Shown here: piece by piece, positions 1 to 354 of the stretch
Layout of the letters: every line of letters starts with the position of its first letter
How positions within the stretch are numbered: position 1 is the stretch's first letter
From: a phage
Sequence record: BH153092.1
Direction: 5' to 3' (one strand)
Length of the DNA: 354 nucleotides
The notes under the pieces: model-generated
Seen by the model: only the letters and a program-made list of their open reading frames with translations
The model's database searches: none
Told to the model about the DNA's origin: nothing
Position numbers and translations under genes: made by a program

Positions 1-80
1 GGCCACTATGATGCCAATAAGAAGCGTCTCTATATTAGTCCCATTTCTGCGAATGATCTTGTAAGGTTACGTTCAACGAA

Positions 81-308
81 TTACAGCATCAAGCCTAGAG
101 TATAAGGTTGCGGACTATAGGCAGATTGCAAAGAAAAAGACAGAAGAGAACACGTATCTCTCATAGTCGAAACTAAGGCATCCAAAGCCGTAGTCGTTCC
201 ACAAATACTATACAAAAGAATTGTATGCCACGATTGTGGACTAGCTACAAACGTTAACACCAGGGCGGTATAACTACTGAACGGTGGACACGCTATTAAA
301 CTCGCCAA
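81..308 (-). CDS. 75-aa ORF from the six-frame track, hypothetical protein if real; judged most likely a spurious antisense ORF
   Basis: ORF is real as an open frame (TTG start at 306-308, TAA stop at 81-83; the stop-to-stop frame extends to 329). Against it being a gene: non-ATG start; no purine-rich Shine-Dalgarno-like motif in the 17 nt upstream (minus-strand sequence ccacaacgtacacgaca); peptide is about 60% S+L+T+A+P with only 3 charged residues in 75 (D2, R1, no E or K); its codon positions carry T-rich position 1 and C/T-rich position 2, the mirror image of the sense-like pattern on the + strand. Confidence 0.1.
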   Translation of the reverse strand: MASLIACPPFSSYTALVLTFVASPQSWHTILLYSICGTTTALDALVSTMRDTCSLLSFSLQSAYSPQPYTLGLML

Positions 309-354
309 TGTCGTGTACGTTGTGGTCAGCTAAATCCTGAAAGTCAAACACGCG
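121..354 (+). pseudogene. Coding-like region in + frame 1 (codon position 1 at coordinates = 1 mod 3), interrupted by in-frame TAA at 271-273 and 331-333 and lacking any ATG/GTG/TTG in its 50-codon open stretch 121-270; disrupted gene remnant or non-standard-code CDS fragment, product unknown
   Basis: Hand-counted position-specific composition for 121..354 (78 codons): position 1 G 31, A 25, C 13, T 9; G by codon position 31/11/8; T by codon position 9/26/14. Purine-rich position 1 and T-rich position 2 are the standard sense-strand pattern, and the phase is the same in every 60-nt block across both TAA codons, so no frameshift. Conceptual translation of 121-270: ADCKEKDRREHVSLIVETKASKAVVVPQILYKRIVCHDCGLATNVNTRAV, then stop. 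No homology search was possible and I do not recognise the protein. Confidence 0.3.
130..150 (+). repeat. Low-complexity polypurine tract (20 of 21 bases A/G; single C at 141)
   Basis: Directly visible: aaagaaaaagacagaagagaa. In + frame 1 it reads K-E-K-D-R-R-E; on the minus strand it is a polypyrimidine run that produces the LLSFSL segment of the track ORF. Confidence 0.5.

What the first reader, a model, noticed from the sequence alone, without database searches (positions are those of the whole stretch)
103..333. Coding-like frame carries four in-frame TAA/TAG codons and no in-frame TGA
In + frame 1 the only stops are TAA 103-105, TAG 118-120, TAA 271-273 and TAA 331-333; all four TGA trinucleotides in the window (9, 54, 278, 338) are out of frame. 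One reading is a genetic code in which TAA/TAG are sense codons and TGA is the sole stop (ciliate-type table 6 and relatives), under which the whole window is one open frame. This is not yet evidence: from the position-specific composition I estimate about 4 in-frame stops expected with no selection (about 2 TAA, 0.8 TAG, 1 TGA), matching the observed 3/1/0. Missing all four TGAs by chance has probability about (2/3)^4 = 0.2. Recoding, a multiply-nonsense pseudogene and an artificially scrambled coding sequence are therefore all compatible. Known prokaryotic and phage recodings involve TAG or TGA rather than TAA, which makes a bacterial recoding explanation less likely.
Basis: inference. Interest (0 to 1): 0.4.

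Follow-up and report, generated by a model that had tools for sequence, protein, structure and literature searches.

The report
Phage nrdD gene written backwards
The window is not a natural DNA strand: it is part of the anaerobic ribonucleotide reductase gene (nrdD) of E. coli phage RB49 written in reverse order without complementing, so its "in-frame stop codons" come from reading a mirrored gene and say nothing about a variant genetic code.

Summary
The pattern is what chance gives: a shuffle that keeps each codon position's composition yields 3.9 ± 1.7 stops, and 33% of such shuffles have no in-frame TGA. Two of the six frames here are TGA-free, and 57% of plain shuffles have at least one such frame.

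As given, the window matches nothing at DNA or protein level. Read backwards without complementing, it has a 117-codon frame with no stops. That frame matches NrdD (Pfam PF13597, E = 1e-15; T4 NrdD structure 1H78, E = 7e-31). The reversed DNA is 98.9% identical to nrdD of Escherichia phage RB49.

- Window 95-354 mirrors NrdD codons 97-183, and window 1-99 mirrors codons 248-281.
- The two pieces overlap in one shared 5-mer, and 199 nt of the gene are missing between them.

Each "stop" is the first base of one real codon followed by bases 3 and 2 of the preceding codon. This explains the G-rich first position, the absence of selection against stops and the lack of homologs.

Recoding and pseudogene readings are rejected. 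A weak Tn3-transposase similarity (E = 0.01) that I followed for a while was chance.

The parts
95..354 (.). Mirror image (reversed, not complemented) of Escherichia phage RB49 nrdD, locus L003 1501-1760, NrdD codons 97-183. Neither strand of the window as given encodes it.
   Evidence: Local blastn of the reversed window gives reversed positions 1-260 = L003 1501-1760, 256/260 identical. The reversed frame 3 is open and matches NrdD.
1..99 (.). Mirror image of RB49 nrdD L003 1955-2053, NrdD codons 248-281. It is in a different codon phase from the rest of the window because 199 nt (3n+1) are missing between the two pieces.
   Evidence: Reversed positions 256-354 = L003 1955-2053, 99/99 identical. 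Natural codon position 1 falls on window phase 2 here, which explains the weak periodicity of window 1-117.
95..99 (.). Junction. CTAGA, the mirror of AGATC, is a 5-mer present at both edges of the missing 199-nt stretch of nrdD.
   Evidence: The two blastn pieces overlap by 5 nt. RB49, Brandy, JSE and ELT4 all carry the 199 nt. The junction is not found in IMG/VR in natural orientation.
103..105 (+). Apparent TAA. T is position 1 of NrdD codon 181 (TAT, Tyr); AA are positions 3 and 2 of codon 180 (GAA, Glu).
118..120 (+). Apparent TAG. T is position 1 of codon 176 (TAT, Tyr); A and G are positions 3 and 2 of codon 175 (GGA, Gly).
271..273 (+). Apparent TAA. T is position 1 of codon 125 (TAT, Tyr); AA are positions 3 and 2 of codon 124 (CAA, Gln).
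331..333 (+). Apparent TAA. T is position 1 of codon 105 (TCG, Ser); AA are positions 3 and 2 of codon 104 (AAA, Lys).
326..327 (.). Dinucleotide swap relative to mirrored RB49: the window has TC where the mirror of the phage would be CT. In natural reading this is ATC (Ile) to ACT (Thr).
   Evidence: All four Krischvirus relatives compared have TC in natural orientation.
344..345 (.). A second, identical dinucleotide swap (natural ATC Ile to ACT Thr).

Best explanation
The window is a segment of the nrdD gene (anaerobic class III ribonucleoside-triphosphate reductase, large subunit) of Escherichia phage RB49, or a near-identical Krischvirus. It is written 3'->5' without complementation. It carries one internal 199-nt excision at a repeated 5-mer and two adjacent-base swaps.

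No known biological process produces a reversed, non-complemented copy. It is therefore a handling artefact or a deliberate decoy, not a feature of a genome.

Reversal keeps base composition and three-base periodicity. First codon positions, which are G-rich, land on window phase 1, so frame 1 looks coding-like. The triplets of that frame, however, are chimeras: position 1 of codon k followed by positions 3 and 2 of codon k-1. Selection never acted against stops in such triplets, so TAA, TAG and TGA appear at the rate set by composition alone. The observed 3/1/0 is exactly what the RB49 codon junctions predict.

Shown: the identity of the sequence, the mapping of every stop, and the phase shift at the junction. 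Inferred: that the reversal is artificial.
For: - Reversed window, frame 3: 117 codons with 0 stops, against 4-11 stops in every frame of the window as given.
- That translation hits Pfam NRDD PF13597 at E = 9.5e-16, NCBIfam NF006732 anaerobic ribonucleoside-triphosphate reductase at E = 1.7e-28, and T4 NrdD structure 1H78 residues 97-189 at E = 7e-31.
- blastn of the reversed window against phages: RB49 nrdD, 98.9% identity over 100% of the query; 622 records matched, mostly phages of enterobacterial, Vibrio and Aeromonas hosts.
- Local alignment: reversed 1-260 = L003 1501-1760 (256/260) and reversed 256-354 = L003 1955-2053 (99/99). The forward window gives no match beyond 11-14-nt words at E = 0.5.
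- Base-by-base mapping shows each of the four stops straddles two real codons. The RB49 codon junctions of this piece predict exactly 3 TAA + 1 TAG + 0 TGA.
- The forward window has no DNA match in phages, plasmids or E. coli genomes or in viral, genome or metagenome contigs. It has no significant protein homolog.
- Within-codon dependence is absent (summed mutual information p = 0.50), whereas 64% of real 354-nt in-frame windows give p < 0.05. This is as expected for chimeric triplets.
- Periodicity is strong in 118-354 and weak in 1-117, matching the phase change at the 3n+1 excision.
Against: The match to RB49 is not perfect. 199 nt are missing between two AGATC copies, and two TC->CT swaps are absent from all four relatives compared. 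A plain reversal of the deposited genome therefore does not reproduce the window exactly, and I cannot say what produced these extra differences. I have no information on how the window was generated, so 'deliberate decoy' against 'accidental reversal in some record' is unresolved. Only 354 nt are available, so I cannot check whether flanking sequence is reversed too.
Confidence: 0.97

Rival explanations
1. Genuine coding region in + frame 1 of an organism or phage whose code reads TAA and TAG as sense, with TGA as the only stop (table 6-like).
For: Frame 1 is open if TAA/TAG are sense and has no in-frame TGA. It has a G-rich first position.
Against: - The same is true of frame -2, and TGA-free frames are common by chance.
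- The stop count equals the no-selection expectation.
- There is no homolog for the frame-1 translation in 5.8 billion clusters, 1.84 billion representatives, Pfam, PHROGs, NCBIfam or the PDB.
- There is no within-codon dependence.
- The sequence is fully accounted for as mirrored RB49 nrdD, a standard-code gene.
- In the whole mirrored gene the same phase contains 2 TGA.
- Stop reassignments known in bacteria at the time of the Codetta screen all involved UGA, and UAA+UAG->Gln is a eukaryotic nuclear change (PMC8629427).
Confidence: 0.003
2. A multiply-nonsense pseudogene in + frame 1, specifically a decayed Tn3-family transposase (tnpA) fragment.
For: - tblastn against plasmids: Tn3-family TnpA of the ISYps3-like group, 41 bits, E = 0.01, 43% identity over 47 aa and 29% over 87 aa.
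- Four control queries reached only E >= 5.
- My own family HMM aligned window codons 6-107 colinearly at 15 bits.
- Constrained permutation tests gave p = 0.002 and p = 0.03.
Against: - The curated Tn3 profiles NF033527 and PF01526 do not hit the window, although a true TnpA segment of the same span scores 108 and 66 bits.
- phmmer against 1.84 billion representatives found no transposase.
- Third codon positions are at chance.
- The C-terminal flank is no better at the colinear register than at an unrelated one.
- Decisively, 355 of 359 aligned bases of the reversed window are identical to phage nrdD. That leaves no room for an independent origin, so the Tn3 similarity is coincidence.
Confidence: 0.005
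3. A real gene on the minus strand under the standard code, namely the 75-aa ORF 81..308 (82 stop-free codons in frame -2), with frame +1 merely its antisense.
For: It is the longest stop-free stretch in the window as given.
Against: It has no homologs: Pfam and PHROGs give nothing, tblastn against plasmids gives a best E = 5, and the 5.8-billion-cluster search gives nothing. The mirrored nrdD identity explains the whole window.
Confidence: 0.002

Closest known systems
Reversed-sequence decoy or negative control (a real sequence written backwards without complementing)
   Same: Composition, k-mer mirror statistics and three-base periodicity are preserved, while open reading frames and homology are destroyed in the orientation given. 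Restoring the order recovers an intact ORF and 98.9% identity to a known gene.
   Different: It is not a pure reversal of the deposited RB49 sequence. 199 nt are excised at a repeated AGATC, and two TC/CT dinucleotides are swapped.
nrdD of Escherichia phage RB49 (Krischvirus, Straboviridae); anaerobic class III ribonucleotide reductase, Pfam PF13597; T4 NrdD structure 1H78
   Same: The reversed window equals nrdD codons 97-183 and 248-281, with 355 of 359 aligned bases identical.
   Different: The window as given encodes nothing of it on either strand. The excision would frameshift the gene, and two conserved Ile codons read Thr.
Ciliate-type nuclear code (translation table 6 and relatives: UAA/UAG = Gln, UGA the only stop)
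   Same: Superficially, in-frame TAA/TAG and no in-frame TGA within 118 triplets.
   Different: There are no homologs in that frame and no codon-level structure. The stop count is at the neutral expectation, and the source is a standard-code phage gene. UAA+UAG->Gln is described for eukaryotic nuclear genomes (PMC8629427).
Stop-codon recoding in phages (TAG->Gln, code 15; TGA->Trp, code 4)
   Same: The source is a phage gene, and a phage-like window with in-frame stops invites this reading.
   Different: The phage papers returned by my literature search (listed, titles and abstracts only) describe code 15 as TAG read as Gln and analyse TAG and TGA; from my own knowledge, no TAA recoding is known in phages. 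RB49 nrdD is intact under table 11.

Membership tests
Stop-codon-reassigned coding region (table 6-like) | The frame becomes one long ORF only when TAA/TAG are read as sense, and this is more than chance. | tested here: not met
   Frame +1 does open, but so does frame -2. 57% of shuffles have at least one TGA-free frame, and the stop count equals the neutral expectation.
Stop-codon-reassigned coding region (table 6-like) | The translated frame has homologs, and the in-frame TAA/TAG align with one consistent amino acid. | tested here: not met
   No significant homolog in any library. In the only weak alignment, which is spurious, the stops face Pro/Ser, Leu/Ile and Ala/Ser/Cys.
Stop-codon-reassigned coding region (table 6-like) | Suppressor tRNA, altered release factor and genome-wide coding density that recovers under the variant code. 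| not testable with these tools
   Only 354 nt are available and they contain no tRNA. The forward orientation was found in none of the collections searched, so no context can be fetched.
NrdD (PF13597) coding sequence | One strand of the DNA, read 5'->3', encodes a protein that passes the family threshold. | tested here: not met
   None of the three window frames scanned (+1, +2 and the frame -2 open stretch) hits Pfam. Only the reversed string does, at 58 bits against a cut-off of 26.2.
Reversed-sequence artefact or decoy | The reversed (non-complemented) string has an intact ORF and near-identity to a known gene, while the given string has neither. | tested here: met
   0 stops in 117 codons, 98.9% identity to RB49 nrdD, and no forward match.
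Tn3-family transposase pseudogene | Match to the curated family profiles (NF033527 / PF01526). | tested here: not met
   The window gives no hit. A true TnpA segment of equal span scores 108 and 66 bits.

The most novel reading that the evidence does not exclude
The string that was reversed might come from a natural RB49-like phage variant rather than from the deposited genome. Such a variant would carry a 199-bp deletion between two AGATC direct repeats that frameshifts nrdD, a gene that from general knowledge should be dispensable in aerobic growth. It would also carry two ATC->ACT (Ile->Thr) double substitutions. The excision and the swaps would then be biological and only the reversal artificial. 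No genetic-code novelty survives under any reading.
Probability: 0.12. Interest if true: 0.08.

Novelty: not a real feature. Interest (0 to 1): 0.02.

Why it matters
It matters only as a control. A gene written backwards keeps three-base periodicity and a G-rich "first position", so it can pass for a coding frame studded with stop codons and invite a variant-code interpretation.

The case also shows how a database-wide E = 0.01 protein hit, backed by permutation tests at p = 0.002-0.03, can still be coincidence. Testing the reversed and complemented strings is a cheap step to run before any homology-free "recoding" claim.

Tried and rejected
1. Forward-orientation homology.
- blastn against phages, plasmids and E. 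coli genomes found nothing beyond 23-26-nt chance words.
- Exact and codon-degenerate pattern scans of viral, genome and metagenome contigs found nothing.
- Pfam, PHROGs, PDB and NCBIfam found nothing.
- The search of 5.8 billion protein clusters found nothing for frame +1 or frame -2.
- Peptide-pattern locus scans of three collections found nothing.

2. phmmer of the 50-aa open segment against 1.84 billion representatives. The single hit, P0121 (E = 2.4e-8), is the translation of a tandem repeat matched in five weak stretches. It is spurious.

3. Tn3-family transposase relic. I pursued this through and at one point rated it about even odds. It was rejected once the reversed identity was found. 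The ambiguous signs had been there: curated profiles were silent, third positions were at chance, and the C flank was not register-specific.

4. RNA or regulatory readings. Rfam gave nothing below E = 8.6. There is no tRNA. The fold z-score is -0.49. There are no inverted repeats and only two short chance-level direct repeats, and no promoter or terminator matches.

5. Global shuffle that preserves codon phase as the origin. This was compatible with the stop count and the mutual information, but it is superseded by the exact mirror identity.

6. Search for the natural-orientation junction and for the swap variant in IMG/VR: not found.

Full report
**Observation.** Its four TGA trinucleotides (9, 54, 278, 338) fall in frames +3, +3, +2 and +2. 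All six frames carry 4-11 stops. The longest stop-free run is 82 codons in frame -2. Three-base periodicity is real (chi-square 23.5, p = 7e-4): G makes up 34% of phase 1. The signal comes from 118-354 and is weak in 1-117.

**Is the pattern more than chance?** It is not.
- Shuffling bases within each codon phase gives 3.9 ± 1.7 stops. 33% of shuffles have no in-frame TGA, and 12% have no TGA together with at least 4 other stops.
- Frame -2 is also TGA-free, and 57% of mononucleotide shuffles have at least one TGA-free frame.
- Mutual information between codon positions is at the shuffle level (summed p = 0.50). By contrast, 64% of 25 real in-frame 354-nt windows gave p < 0.05.

**Search for relatives of the window as given.** Nothing was found.
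- DNA: blastn against phages, plasmids and 5,426 E. coli genomes, and exact or codon-degenerate scans of viral, genome and metagenome contigs, were all empty.
- Frame +1 protein: Pfam, PHROGs, PDB and NCBIfam, 5.8 billion protein clusters, tblastn against phages and peptide-pattern scans of three contig collections were all empty.
- phmmer of the 50-aa open segment against 1.84 billion representatives returned only a translated tandem repeat, matched in five weak stretches.
- The frame -2 ORF has no homolog either.
- There is no RNA family, tRNA, stable fold, meaningful repeat, promoter or terminator.

**A false lead.** tblastn against plasmids gave a Tn3-family transposase of the ISYps3-like group at E = 0.01 (41 bits, 43% identity over 47 aa).
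- Four control queries (reversed protein, frame -2, residue shuffle, phase shuffle) reached only E >= 5.
- A family HMM that I built aligned codons 6-107 colinearly at 15 bits.
- Constrained permutation tests gave p = 0.002 and p = 0.03.
- Against this, the curated profiles NF033527 and PF01526 were silent, although a true TnpA segment of the same span scores 108 and 66 bits. Third codon positions were at chance. The C-terminal flank scored as well at an unrelated register as at the colinear one.
- The next step showed that this similarity is coincidence.

**What the window is.** Reversing the string without complementing it gives a frame with 0 stops in 117 codons.
- Its translation (AQTESPKSTGVACAVTAQIIAQVASHQYGGTTIANIDQVLAPYVKK...) hits Pfam NRDD PF13597 at E = 9.5e-16, NCBIfam NF006732 at E = 1.7e-28, and the T4 NrdD crystal structure 1H78, residues 97-189, at E = 7e-31.
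- blastn of the reversed string against phages finds nrdD of Escherichia phage RB49 at 98.9% identity over the full length, in two pieces. The gene is annotated as the anaerobic ribonucleoside reductase large subunit and is intact under table 11.
- Local alignment shows reversed 1-260 = locus L003 1501-1760 (256/260) and reversed 256-354 = L003 1955-2053 (99/99). The forward window matches nothing in that locus.
- In window coordinates, 95-354 mirrors NrdD codons 97-183 and 1-99 mirrors codons 248-281. The two pieces overlap in CTAGA (95-99), the mirror of an AGATC that flanks both sides of a missing 199-nt stretch.
- The only other differences are two TC->CT swaps (window 326-327 and 344-345; natural ATC Ile -> ACT Thr). 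They are absent from RB49, Brandy, JSE and ELT4.

**How this produces the finding.**
- In window 100-354, phase 1 carries natural codon position 1, phase 2 carries position 3 and phase 3 carries position 2. Frame 1 therefore inherits the G-rich first position of a real gene.
- Each of its triplets, however, is the first base of codon k followed by bases 3 and 2 of codon k-1.
  - TAA 103 = T of Tyr181 TAT + AA of Glu180 GAA.
  - TAG 118 = T of Tyr176 TAT + AG of Gly175 GGA.
  - TAA 271 = T of Tyr125 TAT + AA of Gln124 CAA.
  - TAA 331 = T of Ser105 TCG + AA of Lys104 AAA.
- The RB49 codon junctions of this piece predict exactly 3 TAA, 1 TAG and 0 TGA. Over the whole mirrored gene the same phase holds 8 TAA, 9 TAG and 2 TGA, so the absence of TGA is local luck.
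- Because 199 = 3n+1, the phase changes at the junction. In window 1-99, natural position 1 falls on phase 2. This explains the weak periodicity of the first third.
- Chimeric triplets also explain the missing within-codon dependence and the total absence of homologs.

**Comparison with known systems.**
- UAA+UAG->Gln is the commonest nuclear code change in eukaryotes, and the stop reassignments known in bacteria at the time of the Codetta screen all involved UGA (PMC8629427). The phage papers listed (titles and abstracts only) describe TAG read as Gln (code 15) and analyse TAG and TGA.
- None of this applies here. The membership tests for a recoded gene fail: there are no homologs, no consistent residue at the stops, and no excess over chance. 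The test for a reversed-sequence artefact is met.
- No known biological process writes DNA backwards without complementing it (established knowledge). The window is therefore an artefact or a deliberate decoy.

**Verdict.** This is not a real feature. Its headline reading is refuted, and its 'artificially scrambled coding sequence' alternative is essentially correct. What remains unexplained is the origin of the 199-nt excision at a shared 5-mer and of the two dinucleotide swaps. These could be edits by whatever produced the window. Less likely, they are traits of a natural RB49-like deletion variant; neither was found in IMG/VR.

Noticed in passing
window 95-99 (junction) and the 199 nt absent between window 99 and 100 in natural terms: The two mirrored nrdD pieces are joined at a 5-mer (AGATC in natural orientation) that occurs at both edges of the missing 199 nt. 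A deletion between short direct repeats, or a k-mer-preserving rearrangement, would look like this. All four Krischvirus genomes compared retain the 199 nt.
   Followed up: partly
window 326-327 and 344-345: Two identical adjacent-base swaps relative to mirrored RB49 (natural ATCG -> ACTG). Each turns a conserved Ile codon ATC into ACT (Thr). They are not seen in RB49, Brandy, JSE or ELT4, and their origin is unknown.
   Followed up: partly
window 10-270 (+ frame 1) versus L001 1866-4808 / L002 1764-4700: A colinear 29-43% identity to ISYps3-like Tn3-family transposases (tblastn E = 0.01; permutation tests p = 0.002-0.03) turned out to be coincidence, because the window is mirrored nrdD. This is a caution on how far a borderline hit and post-hoc permutation tests can mislead.
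   Followed up: yes
window 81-329, minus strand, frame -2: This is the longest stop-free stretch of the window as given (82 codons; 75-aa ORF from TTG). It is also TGA-free and has no homolog anywhere, so it is a chance open frame of the mirrored sequence.
   Followed up: yes
reversed window positions 261-354 (= window 1-94): After the frameshifting junction, the reversed frame 3 stays open for about 31 more codons by chance (RTTTLSNLHWNVLVSVFTLIISLRRITVVSP). The true NrdD frame of this piece is reversed frame 2 (DPNYDIKQLALECSSKRLYPDYISAKNNRSIT).
   Followed up: yes
protein P0121 (807 aa), hit of window 121-270: A protein predicted from a tandem DNA repeat reached E = 2.4e-8 against a 50-aa query by summing five weak repeated matches. 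It is an example of repeat-inflated phmmer scores in the representative library.
   Followed up: partly
window, + frame 1, codon positions 2 and 3: Mutual information between phases 2 and 3 is lower than in 99.6% of phase-preserving shuffles. These phases carry natural codon positions 3 and 2 of the same codon, so some dependence was expected. I did not examine this further.
   Followed up: no
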